From the UHGV virus genome UHGV-1998140: DNA of 50,335 bases; one strand, given 5' to 3'. The notes beneath the pieces were generated by a model. That model ran no database searches and was not told the origin of the DNA. It saw only the letters and a list, made by a program, of their open reading frames with translations. This document shows positions 1 through 25,053 of the stretch, one piece after another. The stretch comes from a virus. The position numbers were made by a program, and so were the translations under genes. Positions within the stretch are counted from its first letter, which is position 1; every line of letters starts with the position of its first letter.

Positions 1-3000
1 CCCGTTTTCCAGCGCCGTCGTCCGGTTCCCGATGCTGGACAACGTATCGCCCTGCTGAGTGACTTTCGTGGTCAGGGAGTCAACCGCAGAGGCCGCCGCG
101 TCTGCTGTGCCCTGCGCATTGTAAGCATCGGTGACATCTGTAATAACCAGGTCGTCGATATACAGGTTATAGCCTGGCGTATTGCTGCCGTTCGCCCCGC
201 GCGTGGAGATCCAGACCACAGCGCGCGTCGCGCCTTTCGCTGTGGCTTTTGCATAGCCGGAAAATTTAACCCATTTGTCACGACCGGCCAGCGCTGATTC
301 GCTGACATTCGCTGCCCCCAGCCATGAGTTCGCGCCCGCATCATTTTGTACGTTGAGACCGACGACAGTGACCCAGCCGCTGGACGGGTTTTCTCCGGCA
401 GGCATCATCGCCCAGAATTCAACCCTGAATACTGCCGTATCGCGAATGGCAAGGCGTGAGCCGATTAAATCATCGCTGTTGCCTGTCGTGTTCTGCGCGC
501 GCGAAACGCGCATACATTTGCCGCCCGAGTAACTGACCCCGGTGACCACTCGCGCTGACCCACCCAGGTTGTGGTTTGCGTCATAGGTTTCAAACGTTCC
601 GTCCAGCCACGGGTTTGAGCCTTTACGGGCATTAATATTCAGCGAGCTGTTCAGGCTGGTAATGCTGTCAGCCTGGCTGCTGATATCCTTTTCCGTCTGC
701 GTTACCCGATTAGATAACGCGTTTAAGGCAGTGGCGTCGGCTTTCTTCGTCACGTTAGCATTGGTGTCCGACAGGTCATTCCGCAGTTTTGTGATCGCCG
801 CCCCCTGGGAAGTTATGCTCCCCTCGGCACTGGTCACGCGTGTGGTCAGGTCACTGATTGCGGACGCGTTCGCTGAACCCGCAGTTTCATCAGTCACGTC
901 ATAAACGGCAATGCTGTCGACGACCACAACGGTTGCGGACGGATAGACATAAAAAGCAATCCTTGCGTCTGTGGTGGTGGCCGGCAACGCGGGTATATCT
1001 ACCGTCAGCGTTTCAAAACCATCTTTTCTGGTTACAACAGCCTGCGTCTGGGTGTAAGTGCCTGCGGTTTTCGAATTAAATATGCGGCATAAAATCCCGC
1101 CTGAGCCTGAAATTAGCCTGGCGCGGACCTTAAAACGGAACCGGCGGGATGAACTGACCGGGAACCATTTTGCGTTATTCGACATTAACCCCGGATTACT
1201 TGCGTCGCCAGTATGCGTGATGGTCACCCCGGCAGAACCATCCCCGCTTGAGGCACCCCACACAATGCGCCCGGCATTCTGCAGATTCCACGCATTTAAC
1301 TGGTTTCTGAAATCGTAGTTTTCAACCAGATTCTCACCGGTATCGCGGGCACTATCGAGCGAAGCTTCAAGCTGAGTGATGCTGTTGCTCTGGCTGGTCA
1401 GTTTCCCTTCGGCTTCGGTAACCCGGTTACTTAATGAGGTGACGGCTGACGCGTCGGCCTTCTTCGCGATGTTCTGGTTCGCGGTCGTCAGCCCGTTCTG
1501 CAGGCTGGTGATGCTGCTGCTCTGGCTGCTCAGGGTTTTGCCCTGTTCTGTCACGGTGTTCTGCAGCGACTGCAGCGCACTCGCATCCGCCTTTTTGTTA
1601 ACTGTGGCATTCGTCGTGGCCAGATCGTTCGTGAGTTTCGTGATGCTGCTGCTCTGACTCTCCAGCTTCCCTTCCGCGCTCGTTACCCGGTTGGTCAGAT
1701 TACTGATGGCAGTGGCGCTGGCAGCAATACTGGTCTCATCAGTCACGTCAATAAGATAGAAATCATCAAAATACTGCTCACCCGTCGCCAGCAGTACCAT
1801 AATGGAGACGTCAAGGACTGCCGTTTTCGTGGCTTTCCATGTGCCAGAAATTTCCTGCCAGACAGAGCCTGTCGGCAGCGTCGCGGGATTGAACTGCACC
1901 TCTTTCAGTGGTCCGCCGGATTCACCGATGCGCAGCTTGTTATTTCCGGCAGCGCCTGACGGCATTGTCGTGCCACCTGAAACACGCGTGAACACACCTA
2001 TTTTGTAGGTGCGATCCTTTATGAACGAAATCTTCTGAAGCAGCGAGACCACGTTACTGCCCGGCACCACCTTGAGGATTCGGGTGCCGTTGTACGGTGA
2101 CAATGCCGTTATGACTGACGTCGCTGACTGCCAGCCAGTAAACGCAGCCTGGCCGCGCTCGAATGACCCGTTGGAAATCAGGTTGCCGGGTATCGCCCGG
2201 GAGGCATCCGCATCAGCAACAGCTTCATTGAGGCTGTTGCTCAGCTGCGTCAGGCTGCTGCCCTGGCTTGTCAGCGTTTTGCCCTGCTCCGCCACGGTGT
2301 TTTGCAGCGTCTGCAGCGCACTCGCATCCGCCTTTTTGCTGACATTGGCATTCGTCGTCGACAGGTCGCTGGTCAGCTTCGTTATCGCGCTGTTCGCCGC
2401 CGTAATGTCTTTGCCCTGCTGCGTCACCGTGTTCTGCAGGGTCTGAACGGCACTCGCGTCCGCCTTCTGGCTGACGGTGCTGTTTGTCGTCTTCAGCCCG
2501 TTTTCCAGCGCCGTCGTCCGGTTCCCGATGCTGGACAACGTATCGCCCTGCTGAGTGACTTTCGTGGTCAGGGTATCCACTGCTGACGCGGTGGCATCGG
2601 CGATTTTCTGTGCGCGGTTCGCTGCGGTGACGTTGCGCAGATGCCAGTCTGCTGCATACCAGACCGTACCAAAGGGTGAACTCTGGTTAACCTGCAGGAA
2701 GGGGCGCAGGAAATTCGTGTCAGACGGCACCGTAAAGCGCCATGTTGCGCGCTTCCAGGCCGCCGTGGTTTTCGTGTTACCGCCAGAAAGTCTCGCTTTA
2801 ACCCCTTCCGTCGCTGAGGTGCCGCTGGCGATATAGAGATTAAAATCGGCCTGACCGGCGCCGCAGGCTACCAGGGCCGACATCTCGAAGACATCACCCG
2901 GAGTGACAGCAATGTTGTTTATTTTTGGGACATGATCGCGGCCTGCCAGACGAACCACGTACGCAAACGGGCAATCCCCGGGCACGCCAGCAGCGCCGGA

Positions 3001-6000
3001 TGATACGACGTCATACCCCATGCGGTCGTAAGAAGGATCAAATGCCGGGTTAGGTATATAGTCATCCCCGGCTGCTTTTGCGGCGCTAATTGAGCTGTTG
3101 AGGGAAGTGATATTACTGTTCGCTGCAGTCAGGCCACTTTCCGTCTTCTCCACTCGCCCGGTCAGTGACGTCAGCGCGCTCTGATCCGCCTTTTTACTCA
3201 CATTCGAGTTCGTCGTGGTCAGGTCATTCTGCAGCTTTGTGATTGCCTGGCTGTGGCTGGCCAGTTTCCCTTCCGCTGAGTCAACGCGACTGGTCAGGTC
3301 AGTCACGGCAGAGGCATTTGCCTTCTTCGACACCCCGGTCGACGAAAAAACGTCGACTTTACGGATATACAGACGCGCACTGTTTGACGGTACCCAGCCC
3401 CCGGCGGCAAACCGCAGATAGACATAATTCCCGGTAAAGTTTTCCGGAATGGTCAGCTCCACGGTTTTCGTCTGCCAGCTGGTCGTCACGCCACTCAGCC
3501 ACGGGGATTCTGAGGATAGCCAGGCGACAGGATTGCCCAAATCAGTTATCACACCAACGGTATCAGACGATACGCTGTTCATCGTTTCCGATGTTTTGTA
3601 CTCAAATGAGACGGTAAGCGTCAGCCCGGCCTCAGCAGGGATACGCGTGACGTTGGCAACCCGAACAGAGCCGGTTGTCGTTCTCAGCGCTTTTTCACCT
3701 GCATCATACGTGAATGCCGAGCCGGTACCGGAGTTCTCCCAGAACGACAGATCCACATCCATGCCGCCGTTACTAATCAGGCTCCCTTCAGCCAGGGTGT
3801 TTTTCAGCATCGTCAGCTGGCCAGACTGTGTGGTCAGGTTGCCTTCCGTCGCGGATACCCGGTTGGTTAACGCCGTGACCGCGCTCGCATCGGCCTTTTT
3901 ACTGACGTTTGAATTGGTTGTCGTCAGGTCGTTCTGCAGTTTAGCGATCGCGCTGCCCTGGCTGGTCAGCGTTTTATCCTGCTGGCTGACGCTGGACTGC
4001 AGGCCCGTGATGGCGTTGCTGTTTGCGGCCACGCCCGACTCTGCTTTACCGACGCGGTTAGACAGCGAGGTCAGCGAATTCCCCTGGCTGGTTAACGTAG
4101 TGCCCTGCTGTTCAACCTTTTGCGTGAGGGACTGCAGCGCGGTTGCATCGGCTTTTTTACCCAGACTGGTTTCCAGCCCGCTGATTTTGCTGGCCTGTGC
4201 GCTTTGTGCGGTCGACAGGGAACTCAGCTCCTCCGCCACCGAGGATTTATTCTCGTTGAACTGCGTCTGCAGCGATTCCCGGGCTGTCACCTCTGCTTTA
4301 TCAGCAGTGATACGGGCATTCATCTCCTGAAACAACAGGCCAGAGCGCAGGTCTGCCAGATTATTGCTTTCACTCGTCCCCCGCATCTGCGTGGCCAGCG
4401 TGGCTCGCTTATTCGCTTCTGCCGTATCGGCATTCGCACGGGCTGTCGATTCTTCGCGCAATGCTGCAGTGCTGGCTCCCGGCGTCGGTCGACCCACGGC
4501 AATCCAGTCAATGATGATGAAATTATCATCAGACTGATCCACCGTTAAATCGAGGCGAAACTGGACAACCGGCTTGCTGTCATCGCTTCCCCAGGGAATG
4601 TCCTGAATACTGAGAACAGCCCTGCCACTGCTGTCATAATCCGGCTCTGCGACGGTCAGCATGCGACTGTCGTTGAACGACTGACCTTCATAGCGCCAGC
4701 GGATTTGACCACTCCACGCGGGCGTCCCCGTTTTCTTAAGACGCAGTTTCAGAAAGCGGTACGCTGAGCCACTGATACTGATTCCAGGAGATGTAATGTA
4801 AGCATCTGTCGCATGGTTTGCCGGTCTCAGCCAGCCGTTTTCAACAACCGAAGGCGTGCCGCCGTTAGATGTCCAGCCTTCCCGGTCGTTATCAAAGTAC
4901 CAGATAGCCTGGCTGTCAAACTGCTCCCCGGTTCCCGCCGAAATCTGAGCCATCTGTGTGGCCAGAGAATCATTCACATTCTGGATGATTTGCTGTGTCG
5001 ACTCGATAGCTGCAACACGCTCGTTTTTTTCATTCAGCAGCTGGTCTGCCGCCTGCGCCGCTTTCGCGTTGACGTCCGCAATGCGGTCGGCAGTCTCCTG
5101 TTTTACCGCTTTGTCCCAGCCTGTATTCGCCTGGGCGATGGACTGTTTCAGACTGTTTTCAACCGTCTGCAGCTGGGATTTTAACGCAGCATCCCCTTCG
5201 GCCAGGGTTTTGTTAACGTCAGCGATCTGCTGGTCAACGGAGGCATTAATATCGCTCACGGCATCGGTGATGCTCTTGTTGACTGCCGTGATATTGTCAC
5301 TGAGCGTCTGATTTACGCTGTTGATATTCTCCGTTATCGACTTGTTGACCGCCTCTATCTGCCCGTCAACCTGCTGGCGGATCTCAGACGCGGAATCATC
5401 AATACTCTGGTTAATATCGGTGACCTGCTGCGCGACTTCTTCACGAATAGCATCGGCGGTTTTTGTCAGCTCCTTGTGGGTCTCCTCAATATCCCGCTGG
5501 GCTTCCTGCCAGGCTTCCGTATCCTTAATCGCATCGGTCAGCTTGTCGTAATACTCACCGATATCGTCGCTGGCCATCCCCTGCACCCAGGCGGTCCACG
5601 GGCTTTCATTGCCGATACGATCAACGATCCGCGCGCGGTACCAGAATATCGCCGCAATCTGCAGGCCCATCTGCTGATACGTTTTACCCGGATACGCCAC
5701 ATCAGACAGCGCCATCGCCCCGTTGCCGTTGGGATTAGGACTGTACTGCAGCTCGGTTTTCTGCGTATCGCCGCTCCCCTCCGGGAACTCCCAGTTCAGC
5801 TGCACGCCATGCAGCAGGGAAGTGGTGGTCAGCGCCAGCGGTGCCGACGGCAAACCGATTTTTCCGGTCAGCGTTTTCTCTTCTGAGTATGCCCAGCCGC
5901 TGGAGACCTCTGCAGCGTTGATCGCCCGGACACGGGCCAGATAACGACCGGCGTAAATGCCGCTGACCTCGAACGAGGTGGTCGAGCTGCGCGGCACGTT

Positions 6001-8004
6001 AATCCAGTTACCGTCATTACGTCGCCACTGCGCTTCATACGAAATCGCATCTTTCACCGCATTCCAGTGCACCTGCATCGTTTCAACGCTGATGCCCTGA
6101 TTCACCACAGAATACGAGCTGATGACGATATTTTCCGGCGGTGACTGGTTCCCCGGAGGAATAACGCTTATCGGGCGCTGGTCGATGATCGCGCCGGTAT
6201 CGATACGCGGAAATTTATCCGGGTCGTGGGCCACGCCGGTGATTGTATACGTGGCATTGTTGTTGTCCTTTACCCCAATCACGCGGTACTGCTGTGTATA
6301 CAGATCGTCGGACTCAATAACCCATACGCACTCTGTTTCCGGCGTCTCACTGTAGGCCGTAGTGACTGTTATCTGCCGTCGACCGTTGACTGACTGGATC
6401 GTCCGGGCCTGAGATATGCCTGACGGTAGGTTCAGCTGCAGCCGGTCACCGGCTTTTGCATCAGTATCCCGGTCAAGGGTAATCACCCGGCCATTAACCG
6501 CACTGATACGCCCGCCGTTCACGCGTCCGGCCAGCAGTTCATCAGCCAGGCCAATGATGTAGCCCGGCTGCGGAATTTTGCCATCGAGACCGACATCGAT
6601 TTCAACCATGCGGTCTTTGTTGTTGGTCAGAATGCCCCACAGCCCTTTCCTGTGGGCTTCGCTCTGCCGGGTACACCCAATGGCCGTCACTTCGAGCTGG
6701 TTAAAGCTGTAGCGGGAAACCAGCTCCGGGACGAACGCCGGTTCCATCGCATCAGCATACGCATTCGCCGGGTCGGACCAGGAGACCAGCGCGTTGGTGT
6801 AGCGGGCCTTGCTTGTGCTGCTCGAATAACGCGGTTTGCCAATAATGTTCGCCCGCGTGTAGTTGAAATCAACATCGCGCGGCATATCCGCCTGCACAAC
6901 AATCTGCTCACCGCTCCAGCAGGTCATTCCCCGGAAAATAGCCGCAAAGTCACGCAGCACGGTGTAGGCATCATTGCGTTCCTGCACGTAAACGTTACAG
7001 AGATAGCGAGGCTCCATGCCATCGCCGCCCCTGCCATCGGGGACCATCTGATCGCAATACTGCGCAATCTGGTACAGCGTCCATTTAGAGATATTCGCGC
7101 TGGTCAGACGGTTGCCGAGGCCAAACCGGTCTGAAACAACGATATCGTAATAAATCCATGCCGGGTTATCCGTCCAGGCCCATTTAAACCCGCCGGTCCA
7201 GGTGCCGGTATACTCGCGGCTCTCCGGGTTGTAGTTATCAGGAACGCGGATCACGCGCCCGCGTGGCTCACAGGAAATTTGCGGGATGGAACCATTAAAC
7301 TGGCTGGAGTCGAACTCGATATAGAGCAGCGCGGTATGCGGATAGCGCAGCTTCGCGTCGATTACTTCTGTGTAGCTCTGTAACGTCATCACATCGCCGA
7401 TTTTGACGCTGTTGGCGTCCGGCGATACTTTCCGCAGGCGGAGCGTCCATGTGCTCCCCGCTTGCGGCAGGTCGATGCGGTGGCTGCGCTCATAGCCGGA
7501 AGTGGTTTTCCCGGTAACCGCCGTTTCCAGCACGGTCTGCCATGCACCGCCATCTGTCTGCAAATCGATGGCGTATTTAACCGTGTTGCCCACCACGTCA
7601 CCATCATCTTCCTGCTTCATCAGGGACGGCCACTTCAGACGGACGCGGACGGCAGATAGCTGAGTATTTGTAAACGTATGGCTCCAGGCGGTTTCGCTGG
7701 ATATTTCTGTTCCGACGCTGATTTCATTTTCAGTGCCGGGAATGCCTTGAATATATTTTTGTGCCTGTGTTCCGGGACGAAATTCCCAGGCCACGCCGGA
7801 AAAGTTCTCTGACCCGTCGGCATTTAATAGCGGGGTACCATCGAGATAAATATCCTTGCCCGTTAATTCACCTGCAAATTCTCCCTCGCCCAGCGCGATG
7901 AGAATTTTGGCTTTTGCTACGGACTGTAAATCATCCGGCTGCTCCGTCGGCGTGCGCTGGCTTGAGCTGCCACCTTTGCGCCCTTTGATTATGTTATTTG
8001 CCAT
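1..8004 (-). CDS. Host specificity / central tail fibre protein J-like, giant form (partial; 3' end beyond window start; >2667 codons in window)
   Basis: ATG at 8004; minus-strand frame 0 has no closed ORF anywhere in 1-8004 while the other frames do; by-eye translation starts MANNIIKGRKGG, includes an FN3-like segment, then repeated KKADxSAxxxLTxRV coiled-coil units; sits downstream of I/K/L/M. Confidence 0.8.
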   Translation of the reverse strand, partial: MANNIIKGRKGGSSSQRTPTEQPDDLQSVAKAKILIALGEGEFAGELTGKDIYLDGTPLLNADGSENFSGVAWEFRPGTQAQKYIQGIPGTENEISVGTEISSETAWSHTFTNTQLSAVRVRLKWPSLMKQEDDGDVVGNTVKYAIDLQTDGGAWQTVLETAVTGKTTSGYERSHRIDLPQAGSTWTLRLRKVSPDANSVKIGDVMTLQSYTEVIDAKLRYPHTALLYIEFDSSQFNGSIPQISCEPRGRVIRVPDNYNPESREYTGTWTGGFKWAWTDNPAWIYYDIVVSDRFGLGNRLTSANISKWTLYQIAQYCDQMVPDGRGGDGMEPRYLCNVYVQERNDAYTVLRDFAAIFRGMTCWSGEQIVVQADMPRDVDFNYTRANIIGKPRYSSSTSKARYTNALVSWSDPANAYADAMEPAFVPELVSRYSFNQLEVTAIGCTRQSEAHRKGLWGILTNNKDRMVEIDVGLDGKIPQPGYIIGLADELLAGRVNGGRISAVNGRVITLDRDTDAKAGDRLQLNLPSGISQARTIQSVNGRRQITVTTAYSETPETECVWVIESDDLYTQQYRVIGVKDNNNATYTITGVAHDPDKFPRIDTGAIIDQRPISVIPPGNQSPPENIVISSYSVVNQGISVETMQVHWNAVKDAISYEAQWRRNDGNWINVPRSSTTSFEVSGIYAGRYLARVRAINAAEVSSGWAYSEEKTLTGKIGLPSAPLALTTTSLLHGVQLNWEFPEGSGDTQKTELQYSPNPNGNGAMALSDVAYPGKTYQQMGLQIAAIFWYRARIVDRIGNESPWTAWVQGMASDDIGEYYDKLTDAIKDTEAWQEAQRDIEETHKELTKTADAIREEVAQQVTDINQSIDDSASEIRQQVDGQIEAVNKSITENINSVNQTLSDNITAVNKSITDAVSDINASVDQQIADVNKTLAEGDAALKSQLQTVENSLKQSIAQANTGWDKAVKQETADRIADVNAKAAQAADQLLNEKNERVAAIESTQQIIQNVNDSLATQMAQISAGTGEQFDSQAIWYFDNDREGWTSNGGTPSVVENGWLRPANHATDAYITSPGISISGSAYRFLKLRLKKTGTPAWSGQIRWRYEGQSFNDSRMLTVAEPDYDSSGRAVLSIQDIPWGSDDSKPVVQFRLDLTVDQSDDNFIIIDWIAVGRPTPGASTAALREESTARANADTAEANKRATLATQMRGTSESNNLADLRSGLLFQEMNARITADKAEVTARESLQTQFNENKSSVAEELSSLSTAQSAQASKISGLETSLGKKADATALQSLTQKVEQQGTTLTSQGNSLTSLSNRVGKAESGVAANSNAITGLQSSVSQQDKTLTSQGSAIAKLQNDLTTTNSNVSKKADASAVTALTNRVSATEGNLTTQSGQLTMLKNTLAEGSLISNGGMDVDLSFWENSGTGSAFTYDAGEKALRTTTGSVRVANVTRIPAEAGLTLTVSFEYKTSETMNSVSSDTVGVITDLGNPVAWLSSESPWLSGVTTSWQTKTVELTIPENFTGNYVYLRFAAGGWVPSNSARLYIRKVDVFSSTGVSKKANASAVTDLTSRVDSAEGKLASHSQAITKLQNDLTTTNSNVSKKADQSALTSLTGRVEKTESGLTAANSNITSLNSSISAAKAAGDDYIPNPAFDPSYDRMGYDVVSSGAAGVPGDCPFAYVVRLAGRDHVPKINNIAVTPGDVFEMSALVACGAGQADFNLYIASGTSATEGVKARLSGGNTKTTAAWKRATWRFTVPSDTNFLRPFLQVNQSSPFGTVWYAADWHLRNVTAANRAQKIADATASAVDTLTTKVTQQGDTLSSIGNRTTALENGLKTTNSTVSQKADASAVQTLQNTVTQQGKDITAANSAITKLTSDLSTTNANVSKKADASALQTLQNTVAEQGKTLTSQGSSLTQLSNSLNEAVADADASRAIPGNLISNGSFERGQAAFTGWQSATSVITALSPYNGTRILKVVPGSNVVSLLQKISFIKDRTYKIGVFTRVSGGTTMPSGAAGNNKLRIGESGGPLKEVQFNPATLPTGSVWQEISGTWKATKTAVLDVSIMVLLATGEQYFDDFYLIDVTDETSIAASATAISNLTNRVTSAEGKLESQSSSITKLTNDLATTNATVNKKADASALQSLQNTVTEQGKTLSSQSSSITSLQNGLTTANQNIAKKADASAVTSLSNRVTEAEGKLTSQSNSITQLEASLDSARDTGENLVENYDFRNQLNAWNLQNAGRIVWGASSGDGSAGVTITHTGDASNPGLMSNNAKWFPVSSSRRFRFKVRARLISGSGGILCRIFNSKTAGTYTQTQAVVTRKDGFETLTVDIPALPATTTDARIAFYVYPSATVVVVDSIAVYDVTDETAGSANASAISDLTTRVTSAEGSITSQGAAITKLRNDLSDTNANVTKKADATALNALSNRVTQTEKDISSQADSITSLNSSLNINARKGSNPWLDGTFETYDANHNLGGSARVVTGVSYSGGKCMRVSRAQNTTGNSDDLIGSRLAIRDTAVFRVEFWAMMPAGENPSSGWVTVVGLNVQNDAGANSWLGAANVSESALAGRDKWVKFSGYAKATAKGATRAVVWISTRGANGSNTPGYNLYIDDLVITDVTDAYNAQGTADAAASAVDSLTTKVTQQGDTLSSIGNRTTALENG

Positions 8005-8015
8005 ATCGCGTCCAT

Positions 8016-8038
8016 AAAAAAAGCCACCGCAAGGTGGC
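8016..8038 (-). terminator. Rho-independent terminator-like hairpin between tail gene I and J
   Basis: GCCACC-gcaa-GGTGGC stem followed on the minus strand by a 7-U tract, 12 nt upstream of the J start. Confidence 0.45.
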
Positions 8039-8067
8039 CTGTACTGGAGGAATTACTGACTGATTAT

Positions 8068-8667
8068 TTATTGCTGGTCTTCGACGTATATTCCTGCGGA
8101 AATAATCGCGCCGCCAATTCGCCGCTTACCATAAAGCAAACCAACGGGATAACCCTGTGAGGCGGTATTTGTTACACCGCCAAAGGCATAGCTGGCTTTA
8201 TTCTCGGGAGATTCTCTGCGGGCTAGACCTCCGGGCTGAGGGGAAAGCATCTGGACGACGCCGCCTAGCATCATGGCTGCGCCGCTGGTCATAAGGCTTG
8301 CAGCCAGTGGAGAAGCCGTCCCGCCCGAAACATACGTCATTACCGCGCCCACAACGACCAGCACTGCGCCAAGAATCGTTTGAAGAATTCCGGCCTTTTT
8401 ACTACCAATGACGACAGGAACGATGCGGACTACTTCTCCTGTAGCAGGAAATCCCAAATCATCCTTACCAATATTCTTCTTGCCCCGGAAAACAGCAAAG
8501 GTCAGTCCCTGTTCCTTGCTGTTAAGCATGAATTTTTCGAACCCAGGAATGGTCGCCGCTAATGCGGCCCCCGCTTCATGAATTGTGCTAATTAAACGAT
8601 AGTGGAACCTGCCAAAGGTTTTTCCCAAAACGCCAGAAAGCTCTATTCGTGTCATGGTTTCTTGCAT
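8068..8667 (-). CDS. Tail assembly protein I-like
   Basis: 199 aa, Gly/Ala-rich hydrophobic C-terminal half resembling lambda gpI; positioned between K and J. Confidence 0.75.
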   Translation of the reverse strand: MQETMTRIELSGVLGKTFGRFHYRLISTIHEAGAALAATIPGFEKFMLNSKEQGLTFAVFRGKKNIGKDDLGFPATGEVVRIVPVVIGSKKAGILQTILGAVLVVVGAVMTYVSGGTASPLAASLMTSGAAMMLGGVVQMLSPQPGGLARRESPENKASYAFGGVTNTASQGYPVGLLYGKRRIGGAIISAGIYVEDQQ

Positions 8668-8712
8668 ATATATTCCATTTAAAAACCCGGTTAAGCCTAG
8701 TTTTAGTGTTAT

Positions 8713-9096
8713 TTACTGTCCGCATAGCTTACGTATAGCCATGTACCTAATAGTATCGGCCTCATCACGAACGTATACTTTACTGGATAAATAATACTTT
8801 GGTGACATAAATGGCAATAATGTAGGCTCAGCAACCAGTGTTATAGCAAAGGGGGTCGGTCCGTTATAGGCACCAAAACTATTTCTCCCGTTAACTTTCC
8901 CGATTATGCAATATGCGCCATTTCCAATATCTCTATCATTTATTTCTCTTGTTACCAAATCAGTAAATTCGGCACTATCAGGATCTTTCATTATCCTTTT
9001 AATTTCTTTCTTCGCGATATCAGTAATCTGATCATTACCTGGCTTACAGCCTGCCAGGCAAATAGCGCATAAAAATACAGTTAAAAAATTCCTCAC
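8713..9096 (-). CDS. Lipoprotein (moron inserted between tail genes I and K)
   Basis: GTG start at 9096 with AAGGAG 6 nt upstream; N-terminus MRNFLTVFLCAICLAGC is a lipoprotein signal peptide with lipobox; ORF-track ATG at 9117 is probably too far upstream. Confidence 0.6.
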   Translation of the reverse strand: MRNFLTVFLCAICLAGCKPGNDQITDIAKKEIKRIMKDPDSAEFTDLVTREINDRDIGNGAYCIIGKVNGRNSFGAYNGPTPFAITLVAEPTLLPFMSPKYYLSSKVYVRDEADTIRYMAIRKLCGQ

Positions 9097-9162
9097 TTGC
9101 TTCTCCTTTTCAGTCAAAAACTTAAAGTCCCTTGTAGGATAAACCTGAATATGAAGAGAAGG

Positions 9163-9873
9163 CTAACACAGAGAGTGATGGCGAACGATTTTCATCGTTC
9201 GGTCTAACCAGTACCCGCCATACGGCACTCGCTGGCTGAGGTGGCCATAGAGATGGTGCAGCAGCATGTTCCCTTCCAGCAGAATCCCGGCATGGTTCCA
9301 CTTATCTGCCTGCACCTGCATGATGACCATATCGCCCGGCTGCGGCGGGCCATCAAATTCACGGAACCCGCATTCGTACCAGCAATCATGGTAGAAGTTA
9401 TCCGGATAATCGTTTTCCCACCAGTGATAGTCGACACGGTAGTCATGCAGCTCGATGCCGTGGGTCTGCCGAAAATAACTCATCACCAGCCCCCAACAGT
9501 CGTAATGGCCAAGCACGAACGGTCGCTCGATGAGCGGCAGCTCACCCCTTGGATGGATGGTGCGGAGATCGCCTTCCGGCCAACTGATGATATGCCAGGG
9601 GAGCAGCGTGGCATCACACTGCGCTTTATCCAGTTCGCTGGGCTGAGTGGTCGCATCCGGATGGCTGTGAACAATACCGATGACCACACCCCAATCTTCT
9701 ACCTCTGCGTAATCTTCTGGAGCCAGGACGAAATTATCATTCGACTCGCTGGCCAGGTTCCTGCAGGGGAAATAGCGCTCAACACGCCCCTTCTGAGCAA
9801 GCAGCCCGCAGGCCTCTCGCGGGTACTCAGACGCAGCATGCGTCTGAATGGCTTTAATCGTTTTCTGACGCAT
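9163..9873 (-). CDS. Tail assembly protein K-like (MPN/JAMM plus NlpC/P60-like)
   Basis: 236 aa; HSHP JAMM-type motif and Cys/His-rich C-terminal half as in lambda gpK. Confidence 0.8.
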   Translation of the reverse strand: MRQKTIKAIQTHAASEYPREACGLLAQKGRVERYFPCRNLASESNDNFVLAPEDYAEVEDWGVVIGIVHSHPDATTQPSELDKAQCDATLLPWHIISWPEGDLRTIHPRGELPLIERPFVLGHYDCWGLVMSYFRQTHGIELHDYRVDYHWWENDYPDNFYHDCWYECGFREFDGPPQPGDMVIMQVQADKWNHAGILLEGNMLLHHLYGHLSQRVPYGGYWLDRTMKIVRHHSLC

Positions 9874-9874
9874 A

Positions 9875-10630
9875 TCAGCTCCTTATCAACGACGTGCCAG
9901 GGAACCCCCCGAACGGCAGCTCGTTGTTTTCACCAAAGCGCAATTTGCACGCCGAGAGCGTCCCATTGCAGACGTCCTTCGAAGGGTCATCGACCGGTTT
10001 GTTGTTCTTATCGAAATATTTTGTCCCGGCATAATCACAACCATCGCCGCTGCGGTACTGGTTGCGAATACACCAGGTGCAAATCGAGTGGTATTGCCGG
10101 GTAGGAATCATTAGCCCCTGCAGGTCCAGCGGGCTTGATAGGGTGAACTCCACCGCTTCATCGGTTTCAAGATTTTTGGCATCGATAAAATACAGCTGAC
10201 GCTTTTCCTGCGTAGGGTCTGCGGACGCGTTTCCCTCCGTGAAATTTCGCGCATCGAGATACTGCTTTTGAGTCTCATGTATCGTGATCCGCGCCTGCGC
10301 CATGTCGTCGTAATACAGGCATAGCGCTGTAATTGATCCGTCGATATTGCCCACCCGCAGCGTTGGTTGCGCATCGCTCCCCGAGGTGCTGGATTCAATC
10401 CCTTCCAGCTCGCACGGCCAGGCTTTATATTCGATACCCTGCCACCAGATACTTTTCGCGGGTAATGCTGCTTCATCCCCACCGGCAGCGATGATTTCCT
10501 CTGCTGAATGTGGAACGTTATAACCGTGGAAATACAAGACCTCGCCCATATTAAAAGCGCGGCCGTCTATTTCGAACAACCGGATTTCATCACCCGGCTC
10601 CAGTTTCTGGTAATTTGCATTCAGACTCAT
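9875..10630 (-). CDS. Minor tail protein L-like
   Basis: 251 aa, Cys-rich C-terminus, synteny between M and K. Confidence 0.8.
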   Translation of the reverse strand: MSLNANYQKLEPGDEIRLFEIDGRAFNMGEVLYFHGYNVPHSAEEIIAAGGDEAALPAKSIWWQGIEYKAWPCELEGIESSTSGSDAQPTLRVGNIDGSITALCLYYDDMAQARITIHETQKQYLDARNFTEGNASADPTQEKRQLYFIDAKNLETDEAVEFTLSSPLDLQGLMIPTRQYHSICTWCIRNQYRSGDGCDYAGTKYFDKNNKPVDDPSKDVCNGTLSACKLRFGENNELPFGGFPGTSLIRS

Positions 10631-10965
10631 GGTTTAAATCCCTGAATAAAAGTGGCTGAAAGTGAATAATTCCCGCCGCCCATCGGCACGGGCTTATATT
10701 GTTCACAACGGAATAGCCCCGCATCTTCAAGCGGCGGAGTCCACTGAAACGACTTTGTACCTGCATGCCGGTCCAGGAACTGTTTTATTGGTCGGATATA
10801 CTCCTCAGTACCGACAAAACTCAACTCCCATTCCTGGGACCGGGTATTTAATCCGTCCCCTGAAACCTGCGTATACCCGTCACCAAATTCCGCCTTTCTG
10901 GTGCGAAACTTCACGGTTTGCGCAGGGTTTACCCGGGGACTCCAAGTGAATATCTCAATGGCCAT
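10627..10965 (-). CDS. Minor tail protein M-like
   Basis: 112 aa, immediately downstream of the tape measure gene, start overlaps its stop. Confidence 0.75.
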   Translation of the reverse strand: MAIEIFTWSPRVNPAQTVKFRTRKAEFGDGYTQVSGDGLNTRSQEWELSFVGTEEYIRPIKQFLDRHAGTKSFQWTPPLEDAGLFRCEQYKPVPMGGGNYSLSATFIQGFKP

Positions 10966-13900
10966 TAGCGTTGTCCTCTTACGGCGCTCCAGATAGCGCC
11001 ACCCGGGCGCATATCCTTCGCCTGCAGCTCACGATATTTTTTCTCGACGAACGACCCAATCTGCTGGCCAAACTCTTCAAACCCTGACGTGCTGTCAGTC
11101 GAGGTTTTGTCGCCAGAAATGGTGATCCAGACTTTTGGCCCTTCAACAGACGCTGAGGGCTGGCCGGATGCTGTCGCCCGGATGCCTGAAAACTCATCCG
11201 CGGCACGCGGCGCAGGTATCATCGGAGCCGCCCCCATTCCGGTGATCCCCTCTGCGCTTGTGCTGAAACCTGTTCCGACAAGACTTTGAATCGTGGTCAG
11301 AAGTGACTGTGTCGCCATATCAATCAGCCCCTTAATGACCGACAGGGCCGGGCCGGAGGACTGTTCACCAATGGCACGGACGCCCAGCGAACCATCAGTC
11401 CCTCGGGTCAGTGGCATAATGGCCTCTGGACCAGCCTCACCAAATACCCCCGCGCCTTTGGCAAAGGCGAAGAGCTGCGGGGTGTCGTGGATCTGGTTGC
11501 TGTAGGCACTTAATGAAGGGGAATCGTAGACGCCACCTTTTGCGTTGAATTCCACCGTGGCTGCAGCGGCTTCATACGAACCGGACGGCGTATTTCCACC
11601 TCCTGCCGCACCTGCACTTCCTCCGATCGCACCGCCAAAAGCAGAACCGACCATGCCAAAAATACTCTGCAGTGCACTGGAAAGCGCGATACGCGTGGCA
11701 ATTTGCGCCAAATCTGAAAGGATTGAAATAGTAAAGCTTTTGAAGCTTCCTTTACCGGTTATGGCAAAGGAAGCGAGGGAGCTTGCCATGCTGTCAAAGG
11801 CACTCGTGGTAAAGCTGGCTATCTGGCTGTTTGCATCCCGCGCATTATCTGTCCAGTTCTTCGCCCCACGCCTGAATCCCGCGCTGTAATCCTGTTCTGC
11901 TCTCAGACGATCCTGCACGCTTTGCTCGGTAATCTGCAGTTCCTGCTGCTTTATCCGCTCCAGATCGGCCAGACGGGCCTGATATTCAGCCGATGTGGTA
12001 TCGATAAAATCTTTCTCCAGCGCAATGCGCCGCTGATTAAAGCGGTTAATAATGGCGTTACGGGCTTCTGCGTCGCTAGCTTCCTGTTCGGAAAGGTTGT
12101 ACTTCTCCAGATTCAGAGCAGCTTCGCGCTGCATAGCCTGAGCCTCTTCAGCCCACTTACGGCTTTCAGCCTGATATTTCAGCGAGGTTTTTCGCAAGAC
12201 GGCTTCTTTTTCAAGCTGAATATTCGACTGCAGTTGCGCCCGGATCTGGTCCTGCATATTCACCAGGCTTTGCTGGCTTTTGGTCAGGTTTTCACCCTTC
12301 AGCCCGGAGAGTTTTTCATTAAAGGCGACCAGCTGTCGTTCGGATTCTGTCAACGTATCAGTGGTCTGCGCCTGTTCTTTCAGTACTGCGTTTCGTTGCA
12401 GTGCCTGCTCCAGCATTCGCTGCCCTTCAGTCTCGCCGCTACCAGACTTTTTGGGTTTATCTTTCTTCGTGGCCTTGTCGTATTCATCATTAATCCCTTT
12501 CAGGATCCGCTGATACTCCTGCGAGCCGGATGCGTAAATGCTGTTATTGAGTTTTTTTATCGCTGCAGCACGCTTTTCTGCTGCGGTACTCCCGGCATCC
12601 ATGTAGCTCTTCAGCCCGGCAGCGTTTTTTATACGGTCACTTTGTGCCTCGGCGTATCCTGCTTTGCTTGTAGCGATAAAGCGGCGTGTCTTTTCGTCAA
12701 ACTCTTTCTGGTCTTTAGTGAGGAGATCGGTCAAAGCAATGGTTTCACCAAGACTTCCGAGTATCCCCCACTCACGCCCAAGATTTTTTAACTTATCAAG
12801 ATAAGTTTCCGCGTGTGCCGCCAGCTCTTTCAGTTTAAAGCTTTCCGCATCAAGAGCTTGTTCCATGATGAGCTGCGTTGCTTTCGCTGTTTCCCCTTTA
12901 TTCGTCAGGCTGATAACCTGTGCGACAATGGATTCATTCAGCGAAATGCCCTGGGCTGTCAGCTGGGCCATCGCATTAAGCGGGTCTCCCTTCAGGGCAG
13001 ATATTTTGCTGACCAGATCCTCAGCGTTCCCACCGGCTTCAGCGTAGGCTGTCGCAATAAATGCAACTTCATGCAGCAATGCACCACTGAAACCACCGTT
13101 TGCCGCAGCGACCACAGCAGAAAGGGAATGTTCTGTACCACCAAGCTGAGCATTGAGGCTTCTCAGTTCAGTGAGAGATAACTGAGCTGACGTTCTCGTT
13201 CCGAGTAGCGCCGCATTCAGTTTTTTTGTTTGCTCCTCGGATTTTTTAAACTCGCTGTAAATCATTGAGCCACCGGCAGCAAGCACCGACAGGCCAATAC
13301 CAACAGGTCCACCCAGCAGACTCATCGCCGAACTAAGCGCCCGGCTGCTGGTCGCTGCAATACGCTGGGTCACAGTAAGCTGGGTATTTGCCGCAGCAGC
13401 AGCTTCTGTTGCTGCTGTTAGTGCCGCCTTTCCACCTGTTTCGGCGGCATCAGCGGTCACAACAACCGCTTTGGCGGCTTTTAATTTTTCAAGCCCGCTG
13501 GCCTCAAGACGGTTCGCTTCAATGATCGCCCGCTCATTCTTCAGGTGTTCATCCTGATAGCTGACATTCAGCCCGTACAGCTTATTAACTTCGGTTTGTT
13601 TCGCGTAATACTCGTCCAGCGCAATCGCCTGCTCACGCTGGGCCTGCGCTGCCGCTATCGTCTTTTCAGCGATAGCAGCTTTATTCAGCGCAGACTGCCT
13701 TTCGGCCTGTGCCGCCGCAATTTGTGCCTTTGCCGCCGACTCCAGTTCGGCAGCTGCCTGACGGGCTGCATCCTGCTGTGTCTTCCAGCCTCCTGCCGAA
13801 CTGTCAAGTCGCCCCTTTAAGGTATGAACGGCGGGGATAAGTGCATTAATTATGCTGCTGCTGGCGACATTACTCCCGGCTGCAACTTCATGAAGCACGA

Positions 13901-14147
13901 AGTTCAGTTGGCCAGCACCTCGGGTGGCACCGGCAAACTGATCATCATTAGCACCCTGCACGCCGATTTTTTTTGCGGCCTCGACGGTTTTGGCTATCGC
14001 TGTTGTCAGCTCGTTAGCCTGTGCTGTCGCCTGCTGATTAAATTTTTTACTGGCCTGCCCTGCGTTCTGATATGCCTCGGTAATTTGCGACCGGAATGCA
14101 GCTGAATTCAGATGCAGGGCAACCGATAAGCTGGCTACATCACTCAT
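10965..14147 (-). CDS. Tail tape measure protein
   Basis: 1060 aa, Ala/Gln-rich coiled-coil composition with Gly-rich central region; follows G/G-T chaperone pair. Confidence 0.9.
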   Translation of the reverse strand: MSDVASLSVALHLNSAAFRSQITEAYQNAGQASKKFNQQATAQANELTTAIAKTVEAAKKIGVQGANDDQFAGATRGAGQLNFVLHEVAAGSNVASSSIINALIPAVHTLKGRLDSSAGGWKTQQDAARQAAAELESAAKAQIAAAQAERQSALNKAAIAEKTIAAAQAQREQAIALDEYYAKQTEVNKLYGLNVSYQDEHLKNERAIIEANRLEASGLEKLKAAKAVVVTADAAETGGKAALTAATEAAAAANTQLTVTQRIAATSSRALSSAMSLLGGPVGIGLSVLAAGGSMIYSEFKKSEEQTKKLNAALLGTRTSAQLSLTELRSLNAQLGGTEHSLSAVVAAANGGFSGALLHEVAFIATAYAEAGGNAEDLVSKISALKGDPLNAMAQLTAQGISLNESIVAQVISLTNKGETAKATQLIMEQALDAESFKLKELAAHAETYLDKLKNLGREWGILGSLGETIALTDLLTKDQKEFDEKTRRFIATSKAGYAEAQSDRIKNAAGLKSYMDAGSTAAEKRAAAIKKLNNSIYASGSQEYQRILKGINDEYDKATKKDKPKKSGSGETEGQRMLEQALQRNAVLKEQAQTTDTLTESERQLVAFNEKLSGLKGENLTKSQQSLVNMQDQIRAQLQSNIQLEKEAVLRKTSLKYQAESRKWAEEAQAMQREAALNLEKYNLSEQEASDAEARNAIINRFNQRRIALEKDFIDTTSAEYQARLADLERIKQQELQITEQSVQDRLRAEQDYSAGFRRGAKNWTDNARDANSQIASFTTSAFDSMASSLASFAITGKGSFKSFTISILSDLAQIATRIALSSALQSIFGMVGSAFGGAIGGSAGAAGGGNTPSGSYEAAAATVEFNAKGGVYDSPSLSAYSNQIHDTPQLFAFAKGAGVFGEAGPEAIMPLTRGTDGSLGVRAIGEQSSGPALSVIKGLIDMATQSLLTTIQSLVGTGFSTSAEGITGMGAAPMIPAPRAADEFSGIRATASGQPSASVEGPKVWITISGDKTSTDSTSGFEEFGQQIGSFVEKKYRELQAKDMRPGGAIWSAVRGQR

Positions 14148-16066: not shown

Positions 16067-16385
16067 GGCGCCCGTCAGCCTCCCCCGTAATGATGATCCG
16101 GTCAGTTTTACGGTCGATATTCCGGACTGTATAAACCAAGTCTTTTGTCGTGATTTTCCAGTCGATATCGACCACCACGCCCGGATAGACGGTAAACAGG
16201 CAGGTTTCCACCACTTGCTGTTGGTCCATCGTGCGGACTTTTCTTCCCGATACCAGCTCCCGCTTTGCCCAGGCCTTTCCCGATTCAACTAACTTTTCCG
16301 GCAGCGGTTCACCCAACGGCCCACGACCGGATTGCATATAGCCAATCACAATGCGGCAGGTCATTTCTTCCGGTTTAAGACTCAT
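16047..16385 (-). CDS. Head-tail adaptor / head closure protein
   Basis: 112 aa, synteny between connector-like gene and tail genes. Confidence 0.55.
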   Translation of the reverse strand: MSLKPEEMTCRIVIGYMQSGRGPLGEPLPEKLVESGKAWAKRELVSGRKVRTMDQQQVVETCLFTVYPGVVVDIDWKITTKDLVYTVRNIDRKTDRIIITGEADGRHDRTGD

Positions 16386-24247: not shown

Positions 24248-24249
24248 GA

Positions 24250-24905: not shown

Positions 24906-25053
24906 ACACATCCTCAAGCATGAATTTGGAGAGAGTAAAAGCGGCACTGTCGATGGGGAACTCTGAAACTGGCAACGATGCGAATGACAAATCGTCATAC
25001 GAAATCACCACCAGCTTCCCTCCTACGTATTCAATTTTTAAGCTCTTCATCAT
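24889..25053 (-). CDS. Small ORF, N-terminal paralog of 24250-24546 product
   Basis: 54 aa MMKSLKIEYVGGKLVV... shares its first ~22 residues with MKNLKIEYVDGQLVTV...; weak RBS. Confidence 0.35.
   Translation of the reverse strand: MMKSLKIEYVGGKLVVISYDDLSFASLPVSEFPIDSAAFTLSKFMLEDVYATTS

What the first reader, a model, noticed from the sequence alone, without database searches (positions are those of the whole stretch)
1..8004. Giant J-like tail fibre gene with internal direct repeats
The minus-strand frame is open from ATG 8004 to the window edge (>2667 codons, versus ~1130 for lambda J). The extension is built from repeated KKADxSA...LTxRV coiled-coil units. Positions 1-76 are identical to 2497-2572, and the repeat may extend beyond the window. 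Such repeats are substrates for recombination that could diversify the receptor-binding region.
Basis: seen in the sequence. Interest (0 to 1): 0.55.

Follow-up and report, generated by a model that had tools for sequence, protein, structure and literature searches.

The report
Giant lambda-J-type prophage tail fibre gene
This is about three quarters of a very long (about 3,570-codon) central tail-fibre gene of a Klebsiella prophage: a known family whose shaft alternates coiled-coil linkers with sugar-binding-type domains, and whose near-identical internal repeat is probably why the sequence stops where it does.

Summary
The minus strand is open from ATG 8004 to base 1 (2,668 codons, no stop), and window 1-77 is identical to 2497-2573.

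The gene is a lambda gpJ-type central tail fibre. It sits after H-M-L-K-(moron)-I in an integrated lambdoid Klebsiella prophage. Its first 1,372 codons are 93% identical in DNA to Klebsiella phage phiKO2 gp21 (3,433 aa, "similar to lambda J").

A 99.97%-identical copy in a public assembly (L002) is called at 3,571 aa, so the window holds about 75% of the gene.

The extension is more than coiled coil. In the window, 14 copies of a 44-aa KKAD unit form linkers between six ~150-aa beta-sandwich domains. Five belong to one CBM4/9/16/22-like family; one passes Pfam's CBM_4_9 cut-off and another has a confident AlphaFold model. Two more domains, a Phage_Tail_Tip domain and a C-terminal domain lie beyond the edge.

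The 77-nt repeat starts a 443-nt duplicated linker. Linker dS is 0.05, against about 2.8 for the adjacent domains. Two independent assemblies identical to the window break in the other copy.

Differences from relatives start and end in the linkers or at linker-domain junctions, which supports the recombination idea.

Verdict: a new member of a known, functionally uncharacterised kind. Glycan binding is inferred.

The parts
1..8004 (-). 5' 2,668 codons (about 75%) of the giant gpJ-type central tail-fibre gene. The 3' end lies beyond base 1.
   Evidence: Open frame with no stop. PHROG 2589 'tail protein' 3,177 bits and PHROG 31 'central tail fiber J'. A 99.97%-identical gene in L002 is called at 3,571 aa.
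5515..8004 (-). Conserved J body (aa 1-830): tail-tip hub and FNIII domains.
   Evidence: Pfam FNIII-A_GpJ aa 91-217 (E 1.3e-46) and Phage-tail_3 aa 342-503 (45.8 bits, cut-off 23). PDB sequence matches: F2-pyocin fibre 25vf aa 3-843 (E 1e-269) and lambda J 8iyk aa 12-844 (E 8e-114).
4909..5514 (-). cc0 (aa 831-1032): first long helical coiled-coil segment.
   Evidence: Sub-threshold Pfam Apolipoprotein-type match (33 bits, cut-off 90). Strongest hydrophobic period is 3.66 residues.
4477..4908 (-). D0 (aa 1033-1176): beta-rich globular domain of a different family from D1-D5.
   Evidence: Sequence match to the roseophage R4C 'Megatron protein' 8gtc_M residues 489-619 (E 1.2e-7). The AlphaFold model is beta-rich but low confidence (pLDDT 61). 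This domain is replaced by a diverged version in relative L007.
3787..4476 (-). cc1 (aa 1177-1406): coiled-coil segment ending in three 44-aa KKAD units. High identity to phiKO2 decays and ends here.
   Evidence: Units at aa 1281-1407. The 93% megablast match to phiKO2 ends at window 3887. Binned identity falls from 1.0 to 0.35 between window 4404 and 3804.
3340..3786 (-). D1 (aa 1407-1555): CBM-like beta-sandwich domain.
   Evidence: Domain-family HMM 127.9 bits. Weak Pfam CBM_4_9 match, E 0.08.
3067..3339 (-). cc2 linker (aa 1556-1646): two 44-aa units.
   Evidence: PHROG 'tail needle protein' match at aa 1554-1643, E 1.5e-5.
2626..3066 (-). D2 (aa 1647-1793): beta-sandwich domain of the same family, divergent.
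   Evidence: Domain-family HMM 114.9 bits. No Pfam hit.
2185..2625 (-). cc3 linker (aa 1794-1940): three 44-aa units. It contains most of repeat copy A.
   Evidence: 98.5% nt identity to linker cc6 of L002, dS 0.053.
2131..2573 (-). Repeat copy A: 443 nt covering most of linker cc3 and the first ~18 codons of D3.
   Evidence: Matches L002 18591-19033 (copy B) at 98%. Its first 77 nt (2573-2497) equal window 77-1 exactly. Contigs L004 and L005 end 99 and 50 nt into it.
1735..2184 (-). D3 (aa 1941-2090): carbohydrate-binding-module domain.
   Evidence: Pfam CBM_4_9 E 6.8e-10, 39.9 bits, above the 25.9 cut-off. Domain-family HMM 180.7 bits.
1336..1734 (-). cc4 linker (aa 2091-2223): three 44-aa units.
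886..1335 (-). D4 (aa 2224-2373): beta-sandwich domain. This cassette differs in relative L007.
   Evidence: Domain-family HMM 132.3 bits. No high-identity match to L007 between L002 aa 2218 and 2402.
619..885 (-). cc5 linker (aa 2374-2462): two 44-aa units.
127..618 (-). D5 (aa 2463-2626): CBM-fold beta-sandwich domain.
   Evidence: AlphaFold2 model with pLDDT 93.5 and pTM 0.88, all-beta. Foldseek against PDB: CBM16 2zey, CBM22 4xun, CBM4-2 2y6j, Klebsiella phage K2-2 tailspike 8iq9, and mycobacteriophage Douge central fibre 8zdp (TM 0.67).
1..126 (-). Start of linker cc6 (aa 2627-2668), cut by the window edge.
   Evidence: The linker continues in L002.
1..77 (-). First 77 nt of repeat copy B. 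The window stops here.
   Evidence: Exact identity to 2497-2573. The two sites where L002 and L003 differ from the window here (window 58 and 19) are the sites where their copy B differs from copy A.
8068..14147 (-). Upstream lambda-type tail-tip genes: I (8068-8667), moron-like ORF (8713-9117), K (9163-9873), L (9875-10630), M (10627-10965), tape measure (10965-14147).
   Evidence: Pfam Lambda_tail_I, NLPC_P60 with Prok-JAB, Phage_tail_L, Phage_min_tail, Tape_meas_lam_C. Same gene order as phiKO2 gp15-gp21.

Best explanation
Window 1-8004 (minus strand) is the first ~75% of a single ~10.7-kb gene. It encodes the central tail fibre (lambda gpJ type, 'tip attachment protein J') of an integrated lambdoid Klebsiella prophage.

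Shown:
- Residues 1-~830 are an ordinary J body.
- A ~2,400-aa shaft follows. It starts with a ~200-aa coiled coil and a beta-rich domain (D0). Then come seven modules (five in the window), each made of two or three 44-aa KKAD helical units plus a ~150-aa CBM4/9/16/22-like beta-sandwich.
- In the near-identical L002 copy and in full-length relatives, the protein ends with a Phage_Tail_Tip domain and a ~155-aa C-terminal domain, as lambda J does. The shaft is therefore an insertion into a J-type protein, not a fusion.

Inferred from lambda and from the fold:
- The protein is a trimer.
- Its linkers form a long coiled-coil rod displaying up to 21 lectin-like domains.
- These domains bind Klebsiella surface polysaccharide (capsule or O antigen) weakly and multivalently. 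They hold the phage while the distal tip domain reaches an outer-membrane receptor.

Shown by comparison: the conserved linker DNA serves as homology for intragenic and inter-phage recombination. This swaps, deletes or duplicates domain cassettes.

Inferred: the 443-nt near-identical linker pair is one such tract, and it is also the reason the sequence breaks off at base 1, as a short-read assembly break.
For: Identity as J:
- Pfam FNIII-A_GpJ and Phage-tail_3; PHROGs 2589 and 31.
- PDB sequence matches to lambda J, a J-like gp24 and the F2-pyocin fibre over aa ~3-850.
- Gene order H-M-L-K-I-J.
- 93% DNA identity to phiKO2 gp21 over 4,118 nt.

Full length:
- L002 and L003 carry the same locus (99.97% and 99.95% identity), with the gene called at 3,571 aa and PF09327 on record for it.
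- Relatives are 3,264 aa (K. oxytoca NBRC 105695), about 3,290 aa (a complete Klebsiella chromosome), about 3,440 aa (K. spallanzanii) and 3,433 aa (phiKO2).
- L007 has Phage_Tail_Tip at aa 2977-3107 followed by ~155 aa.

Domains:
- CBM_4_9 above Pfam's cut-off for D3.
- One HMM links D1-D5, D7 and D8.
- The D5 model has pLDDT 93.5 and its best PDB fold matches are CBM16, CBM22, CBM4 and phage fibre or tailspike CBM-like domains.

Linkers:
- 44-residue autocorrelation; 14 units in the window and 21 in L002.
- Only helical or coiled-coil families give weak matches.

Recombination:
- dS is 0.053 for cc3 versus cc6, about 2.8 for D3 versus D7, and 1.07 for cc4 versus cc7.
- Junctions between L002 and L007 lie at aa ~1045/1166, 2218/2402 and 2756/3031, in linkers or at linker-domain boundaries. 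They include the loss of one whole module.
- The phiKO2 break lies in the last KKAD unit of cc1.

Assembly break:
- The window ends exactly 77 nt into copy B.
- L004 and L005, both 100% identical to the window, end 99 and 50 nt into copy A.
- About two thirds of the 120 listed homologues are flagged 'partial'.

Precedent for function:
- CBM-like domains of the mycobacteriophage Douge central fibre bound the host surface in experiments (PMC13033339).
- Tal extensions with carbohydrate-binding domains are reported in streptococcal phages (PMC7291167).
Against: - No glycan binding, trimer state or fibre length was measured here.
- Only D3 passes Pfam's CBM cut-off. D2, D4 and D5 have no Pfam hit and D1 only a weak one.
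- The D0 model is poor.
- The helical nature of the 44-aa units rests on composition, periodicity (mixed peaks at 3.4 and 3.65) and insignificant matches. No structure was predicted for them, and each unit carries two conserved glycines.
- The gene's 3' end was never seen for this exact allele. Only L002's called length and L007's sequence stand in for it.
- The recombination evidence comes from a handful of relatives, without a statistical test of breakpoint placement.
- The link between 77 nt and an assembler word size is an inference.
Confidence: 0.75

Rival explanations
1. The giant open frame, or its length, is an assembly artefact: repeat-driven misjoining or expansion of a normal-sized J gene.
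For: The gene contains a near-identical 443-nt repeat. The window and two other contigs break at it. About two thirds of the listed database homologues are 'partial'.
Against: The same 8 kb is reproduced at 99.95-100% identity in four independent assemblies. L002 and L003 read through both repeat copies, which differ at 9 sites. Equally long intact genes occur in phiKO2, in a complete Klebsiella chromosome and in two other species. The frame carries coherent, differently diverged domains rather than collapsed copies.
Confidence: 0.03
2. The shaft is only a spacer or ruler. The beta-sandwich domains are structural beads with no ligand, and the extension simply sets the distance the tip must span through the capsule.
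For: Most of the domains fail Pfam's CBM cut-off. CBM-like jelly rolls are a common structural fold in phage fibres. Ligand-binding residues were not examined.
Against: The domains are the most variable and most often exchanged parts, while the linkers are conserved. This fits specificity determinants better than inert spacers. Homologues carry other lectin-type domains in the same slots, such as the Pfam ILEI family. Similar domains in the Douge central fibre bind the host surface.
Confidence: 0.15
3. After the J body, the three chains do not form one central rod. They splay into three separate long arms, giving side-fibre-like appendages.
For: Virions of NAR688, a Klebsiella telomere phage, are described as having a central tail spike and multiple long tail fibres (PMC12042878). 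The NAR688 genome encodes a relative of this shaft (47% identity over 99% of the distal 1,300 aa). No side-fibre or tailspike gene follows J in relative L007.
Against: The chain ends in a lambda-type Phage_Tail_Tip domain. From knowledge of the lambda tail tip, not tested here, that domain belongs to the trimeric central fibre. The linkers resemble trimeric coiled coils (P22 needle, HA2), although the matches are not significant. NAR688's other tail genes were not examined.
Confidence: 0.1

Closest known systems
Klebsiella phage phiKO2 gp21 (YP_006601.1, 3,433 aa, 'tail protein, similar to lambda J protein')
   Same: Same slot after the lambda I-like gene. 93% DNA identity over the first 4,118 nt. 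Same plan of J body, coiled-coil and beta-sandwich shaft, and 21 KKAD units.
   Different: Beyond aa ~1,373 only patchy 70-75% DNA matches remain, and in shuffled order. The domain-family HMM finds 4 strong and 2 weak domains there, against 7 in L002. phiKO2 is a linear-plasmid prophage, whereas this one has a lambda-type integrase and sits beside host genes.
Phage lambda gpJ (tip attachment protein J, 1,132 aa; PDB 8iyk)
   Same: Homologous over aa 12-844 (E 8e-114). Same gene order, and the same Phage_Tail_Tip domain near the C terminus in full-length relatives.
   Different: About 2,400 extra residues (coiled coils, D0 and seven CBM-like modules) lie between the FNIII region and the tip domain. 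The receptor is unknown, and nothing here points to LamB.
F2-pyocin tail fibre (PDB 25vf, 1,204 aa) and other solved J-like proteins (9l9p_S, 23gd_D)
   Same: These are the best solved-structure matches to the N-terminal 840-1,060 residues (E 1e-269 to 3e-191).
   Different: All are ~1,150-1,200 aa and lack the modular shaft.
Mycobacteriophage Douge central fibre protein gp20 (PDB 8zdp)
   Same: A siphophage central fibre carrying CBM-like domains. Its domain is the best TM-score match to D5 among the PDB hits (0.67). Such domains bound the host surface in experiments (PMC13033339).
   Different: No detectable sequence relationship (16% identity in the structural alignment). It has few domains, no 44-aa linker array, and a different host envelope.
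Tal extensions and 'evolved Dit' proteins with carbohydrate-binding modules in lactococcal and streptococcal siphophages (PMC7291167)
   Same: The concept is the same: CBMs grafted onto core tail-tip proteins to bind surface saccharides.
   Different: Different CBM family (BppA-type), one or a few modules, Gram-positive hosts, and no coiled-coil spacing.
Trimeric coiled-coil fibres with KAD-type beta-layers (trimeric autotransporter stalks; Streptococcus prophage tail-fibre hyaluronidase 2C3F; PMC4786415)
   Same: Beads-on-a-rod logic. The recurring K-A-D motif at the start of each helical unit resembles the beta-layer motifs IENKAD and LxxKADK.
   Different: The resemblance is by eye only. 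The 7-residue IENKKAD construct served as the 'control' in that paper. No structure of these units was predicted or solved here.

Membership tests
Lambda gpJ-type tip attachment protein / central tail fibre | N-terminal FNIII-A_GpJ domain and Phage-tail_3 hub domain | tested here: met
   PF24801 E 1.3e-46 (158 bits, cut-off 27). PF13550 45.8 bits (cut-off 23).
Lambda gpJ-type tip attachment protein / central tail fibre | Collinear homology to solved J proteins across the body | tested here: met
   8iyk_J aa 4-840 aligns to query aa 12-844, E 8.4e-114. 25vf_A E 1.1e-269.
Lambda gpJ-type tip attachment protein / central tail fibre | Last gene of the H-M-L-K-I-J tail-tip cluster | tested here: met
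   Pfam assignments of the six upstream ORFs. Same order as phiKO2.
Lambda gpJ-type tip attachment protein / central tail fibre | C-terminal Phage_Tail_Tip (PF09327) domain followed by a receptor-binding domain | tested here: inconclusive
   This region is outside the window. PF09327 is on record for the 3,571-aa L002 product. It is found at aa 2977-3107 of relative L007 (E 7.8e-38), followed by ~155 aa. Not seen for this exact allele.
Lambda gpJ-type tip attachment protein / central tail fibre | Trimer at the tail tip of the virion | not testable with these tools
   Needs virion proteomics or cryo-EM.
phiKO2 gp21-like giant tail proteins (PHROG 2589) | Match to the family profile across the J body and shaft | tested here: met
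   phrog_2589 3,177.7 bits in 6 stretches, profile length 3,686. 93% DNA identity to gp21 over 4.1 kb.
CBM4/9/16/22-type beta-sandwich carbohydrate-binding modules | Sequence match to Pfam CBM_4_9 above the gathering score | tested here: met
   Met for D3 only (39.9 bits, cut-off 25.9). D1 is sub-threshold (13.7 bits). D0, D2, D4 and D5 give no hit.
CBM4/9/16/22-type beta-sandwich carbohydrate-binding modules | Jelly-roll beta-sandwich fold matching solved CBMs | tested here: met
   D5 model pLDDT 93.5. Foldseek probability 1.00 to CBM16 2zey, CBM22 4xun and CBM4-2 2y6j at TM 0.5-0.6. D1-D4 are linked to D5 only through a shared HMM.
CBM4/9/16/22-type beta-sandwich carbohydrate-binding modules | Binds a carbohydrate ligand | not testable with these tools
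   Needs glycan arrays or binding assays. Ligand-site residues were not compared.
Alpha-helical trimeric coiled coil | Heptad or hendecad hydrophobic periodicity and helical structure of the 44-aa units | tested here: inconclusive
   Period-44 sequence repeat. Hydrophobic peaks at 3.4 and 3.65 residues, without a shuffle test. Only sub-threshold matches to SlyX, Apolipoprotein, P22 needle, SNAP25 and HA2. No structure predicted.

The most novel reading that the evidence does not exclude
The giant J may be the only host-recognition protein of this prophage family. Its ~150-200-nm trimeric rod, studded with about 21 exchangeable lectin-like domains, would let a siphophage cross and grip the thick Klebsiella capsule without any depolymerase. 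The conserved linker DNA would act as a built-in cassette-shuffling system that retargets individual beads. This would be a natural modular adhesin scaffold usable for engineering host range.
Probability: 0.25. Interest if true: 0.6.

Novelty: new member of a known kind. Interest (0 to 1): 0.3.

Why it matters
Practical lesson: genes of this family carry near-identical internal repeats that break short-read assemblies. Their database entries are therefore mostly 'partial', and neither length nor copy number can be trusted without long reads.

Biological interest: the shaft of CBM-like domains on conserved linkers is a plausible capsule- or O-antigen-binding device, and apparently evolves by cassette exchange. 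This is relevant to predicting and engineering host range of Klebsiella phages. The family has been on record since phiKO2 and is routinely annotated, but I found no functional study of the shaft in the held literature.

Tried and rejected
- Exact-match scan of genome contigs with window 78-140: no hit. The source strain is not a species-representative genome.
- megablast of the L002 sequence beyond the window against the phage collection: no match.
- The search for homologous proteins returned no protein longer than 2,275 aa. It lacked both the 3,571-aa L002 product and phiKO2 gp21, so it could not supply the full-length protein. Full-length relatives came from the look-up of encoding contigs and the search for related loci instead.
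- The phiKO2 genome paper (Casjens et al. 2004) is not in the held library by DOI or by my guessed PMC id. I cite only the GenBank annotation.
- Self-BLASTP of the whole protein gave only the trivial hit. It was replaced by HMMs of the domain and the 44-aa unit.
- Tandem Repeats Finder found nothing in 1-8100. The 132-nt units are too diverged to count as a DNA tandem array.
- The D0 AlphaFold model was too poor (pLDDT 61) to use for fold search.
- The antisense ORF 3449-4330 (+, 293 aa) has no PHROG hit. I treat it as a by-product of the G+C-rich coding strand.
- No tRNA and no Rfam family anywhere in the window.
- A J-side-fibre gene fusion was considered and rejected, because full-length relatives end in J's own tail-tip domain.
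- A depolymerase role was considered and rejected, because no catalytic domain was detected and the modules are small CBM-fold domains.
Full report
1. Observation

The reverse strand of window 1-8004 translates into 2,668 codons from ATG 8004 with no stop, and the frame runs off the left edge. Ungapped similarity continues at 82% over 135 nt.

KKA[D/N] occurs eight times. A profile of the 44-aa unit finds 14 units in the window protein, the last cut by the edge. At DNA level these units are only ~60-90% alike. Tandem Repeats Finder reports nothing. The only near-identical DNA repeat is therefore the 77-nt pair.

2. Context

The window is an integrated lambdoid prophage.
- The right end (47678-50335, minus strand) is a host type VI secretion TssM/IcmF gene.
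- A lambda-type integrase lies at 44478-45659.
- Q-like, O-like, Ant and methyltransferase genes lie in between.

Directly upstream of the finding lie the tape measure, M, L, K, a small moron-like ORF and I. This is the same order as phiKO2 gp15-gp21. No tRNA or Rfam family is present.

3. What the gene is

Residues 1-~840 are a standard J body.
- Pfam finds FNIII-A_GpJ (E 1.3e-46) and Phage-tail_3.
- PHROGs finds 'central tail fiber J' and the giant-protein family 2589 at 3,177 bits.
- Among solved structures, the F2-pyocin fibre, two J-like proteins and lambda J (aa 12-844, E 8e-114) match.

The first 4,118 nt are 93% identical to gene 21 of Klebsiella phage phiKO2. That gene is 10,302 nt (3,433 aa) and annotated 'tail protein, similar to lambda J protein'.

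4. The part beyond the window

The exact gpI protein of the window is encoded on 21 public contigs. In L002 (GCA_021208745.1, a 249-kb contig) and L003, window 10000-1 aligns without gaps at 99.97% and 99.95%. The J gene there is called at 3,571 aa, with PF09327 (Phage_Tail_Tip) among its recorded domains.

The 1,933 nt that L002 adds encode the rest of linker cc6, two further CBM-like domains with their linkers, and the start of a tip-domain-like sequence ('SMYSIKVETNNGK').

Full-length relatives:
- 3,264 aa in K. oxytoca NBRC 105695 (L007)
- about 3,290 aa in a complete Klebsiella chromosome (L009)
- about 3,440 aa in K. spallanzanii (L008)

L007 has Phage_Tail_Tip at aa 2977-3107, followed by ~155 residues. 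The shaft is thus an insertion between J's body and J's own tip, not a fusion with another fibre gene. In L007 the next genes are umuD and umuC and then host genes. No side-fibre or tailspike gene follows.

5. Anatomy of the shaft (L002 numbering, identical to the window up to aa 2668)

| Segment | Residues | Note |
|---|---|---|
| cc0 | 831-1032 | hydrophobic period 3.66 |
| D0 | 1033-1176 | separate domain family |
| cc1 | 1177-1406 | ends in three 44-aa units |
| D1 | 1407-1555 | CBM-like |
| D2 | 1647-1793 | CBM-like, divergent |
| D3 | 1941-2090 | passes Pfam CBM_4_9 |
| D4 | 2224-2373 | CBM-like |
| D5 | 2463-2626 | confident CBM-fold model |
| D7 | 2773-2917 | beyond the window |
| D8 | 3058-3202 | beyond the window |

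D1 to D8 are separated by linkers of two or three 44-aa units.

D3 passes Pfam's CBM_4_9 cut-off (39.9 bits against 25.9) and D1 is sub-threshold. One HMM built from the seven domains recognises all of them, and recognises 6-7 such domains in each close relative.

An AlphaFold2 model of D5, built on an alignment of 35 family members, is a confident beta-sandwich (pLDDT 93.5). Its best PDB fold matches are CBM16, CBM22, CBM4-2, the Klebsiella phage K2-2 tailspike and the mycobacteriophage Douge central fibre. In the viral structure library it matches many tail-fibre and minor-tail proteins.

D0 belongs to another family. It matches residues 489-619 of the roseophage R4C 'Megatron protein' by sequence (E 1.2e-7), but its model is poor (pLDDT 61).

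The linkers give only weak matches, all to helical coiled-coil families: SlyX, Apolipoprotein, P22 needle, SNAP25 and HA2. I read them as a trimeric coiled coil. That is an inference and no structure was predicted. The K-A-D motif recalls the beta-layer motifs of trimeric coiled coils, including a prophage tail fibre (PMC4786415). This is a lead only.

6. The 77-nt repeat

In L002 the duplicated tract is 443 nt. Copy A is 16095-16537, equal to window 2573-2131. Copy B is 18591-19033. The copies differ at 9 sites. The tract covers most of a linker plus the first ~18 codons of the following domain.

| Pair | Nei-Gojobori dS |
|---|---|
| Linkers cc3 vs cc6 | 0.053 |
| Domains D3 vs D7 that follow | about 2.8 (saturated) |
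| Next linkers cc4 vs cc7 | 1.07 |

A young, nearly identical tract between old sequences indicates gene conversion or recent recombination.

Two of the three window/L002 differences in 10 kb, and two of five for L003, lie at window 58 and 19. At those positions the window carries the copy-A bases and L002 and L003 carry copy-B-specific bases.

7. Why the window ends there

The window stops exactly 77 nt into copy B. L004, a JGI metagenome contig, is 100% identical to the window and stops 99 nt into copy A. L005, a Logan contig, is also 100% identical and stops 50 nt into copy A. L002 and L003, whose copies differ early in the tract, read through.

About two thirds of the 120 listed homologues are flagged 'partial'. 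I infer that base 1 is a short-read contig end at a repeated word. From my own knowledge, 77 is a common final word size in SPAdes. Copy number therefore cannot be read from this window. The repeat itself is real.

8. Recombination between phages

Against L007, L002 is 91-97% identical except for three differences:
- a replaced D0 (aa ~1045-1166)
- a replaced D4 cassette (aa 2218-2402)
- the absence in L007 of one whole module (aa 2756-3031)

Every junction lies in a linker or at a linker-domain boundary. Against phiKO2, identity decays within cc1 and is lost at the last KKAD unit before D1. Further on, only 70-75% patches in shuffled order remain. Module counts vary from 6 to 7 and unit counts from 17 to 21.

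9. Mechanism

Shown: the domain composition, the order of parts and the mosaic pattern.

Inferred:
- The protein is a trimeric central fibre, as in lambda (PMC7291167).
- Its ~1,270 linker residues would make a rod of roughly 150-200 nm if fully helical (my estimate at 0.15 nm per residue).
- The rod would display up to 21 lectin-like domains that bind capsule or O antigen multivalently, while the distal tip domain finds the final receptor.

Precedents are the CBM-like domains of the Douge central fibre, which bind the host surface (PMC13033339), and Tal extensions with carbohydrate-binding domains.

Rivals are a purely structural spacer, three splayed arms (suggested by the NAR688 micrograph description in PMC12042878), or an assembly artefact. 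The artefact reading is effectively excluded by the independent assemblies.

10. Novelty and verdict

The family has been on record since phiKO2. It has its own PHROG, and NCBI names it 'phage tail tip fiber protein', 'DUF1983 domain-containing protein' or 'carbohydrate binding domain-containing protein'. A 99.97%-identical allele is already public.

The distal half of this allele is at most 56% identical over 79% of its length, or 83% over 42%, to the listed database proteins. That index appears to omit proteins longer than ~2,275 aa.

This is a new member of a known kind. The gene itself is ordinary. The modular CBM shaft, whose function I found unstudied in the held literature, and its linker-mediated shuffling are moderately interesting. 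Interest 0.3.

Noticed in passing
window 47678-50335 (-), 44478-45659 (+): The right end of the window is a host type VI secretion TssM/IcmF gene, open to the edge. A lambda-type integrase lies ~2 kb inside it. The prophage is therefore integrated next to a T6SS cluster, and no tRNA is present at the junction.
   Followed up: partly
window 8713-9117 (-): A 134-aa ORF with no Pfam hit (PHROG 2320, unknown function) sits between the K-like and I-like tail genes. This is the slot where phiKO2 carries its 'putative moron' gp19.
   Followed up: partly
window 30233-36433 (-): A dense run of DNA-methyltransferase-like genes (30233-31309, 33619-35592, 35546-36433; the last also matches a PAPS-reductase PHROG), with an HNH endonuclease (32564-33622) and a Q-like antiterminator (31845-32693).
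   Followed up: no
window ~24000-28000: G+C falls to 41-48%, and 25.0-26.7 kb contains no ORF of 80 aa or more on either strand. No Rfam family was found there.
   Followed up: no
L004 (ends at window 2475), L005 (ends at window 2524); one search hit list: Independent short-read and metagenome contigs identical to the window terminate inside the other copy of the 443-nt repeat. About two thirds of the listed database homologues of this gene family are 'partial'. This is a systematic assembly and annotation problem for the family.
   Followed up: yes
L007 12350-14051 (+): In the K. oxytoca NBRC 105695 relative the giant J gene is followed directly by umuD-like and umuC-like genes and then host genes (BLUF-EAL, thrS). 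No side-fibre, fibre-assembly or tailspike gene follows, so J looks like the only adhesin of the tail module.
   Followed up: partly
output (search for homologous proteins): No listed protein exceeds 2,275 aa, and neither the 3,571-aa L002 product nor phiKO2 gp21 appears. This suggests a length ceiling in that index, so 'best identity 56%' understates what is public.
   Followed up: partly
one search hit list (e.g. P0020-P0081): Many homologues carry a Pfam ILEI (interleukin-like EMT inducer, PF15711) domain instead of, or alongside, CBM_4_9. Different lectin-type domains may therefore occupy the same shaft slots.
   Followed up: no
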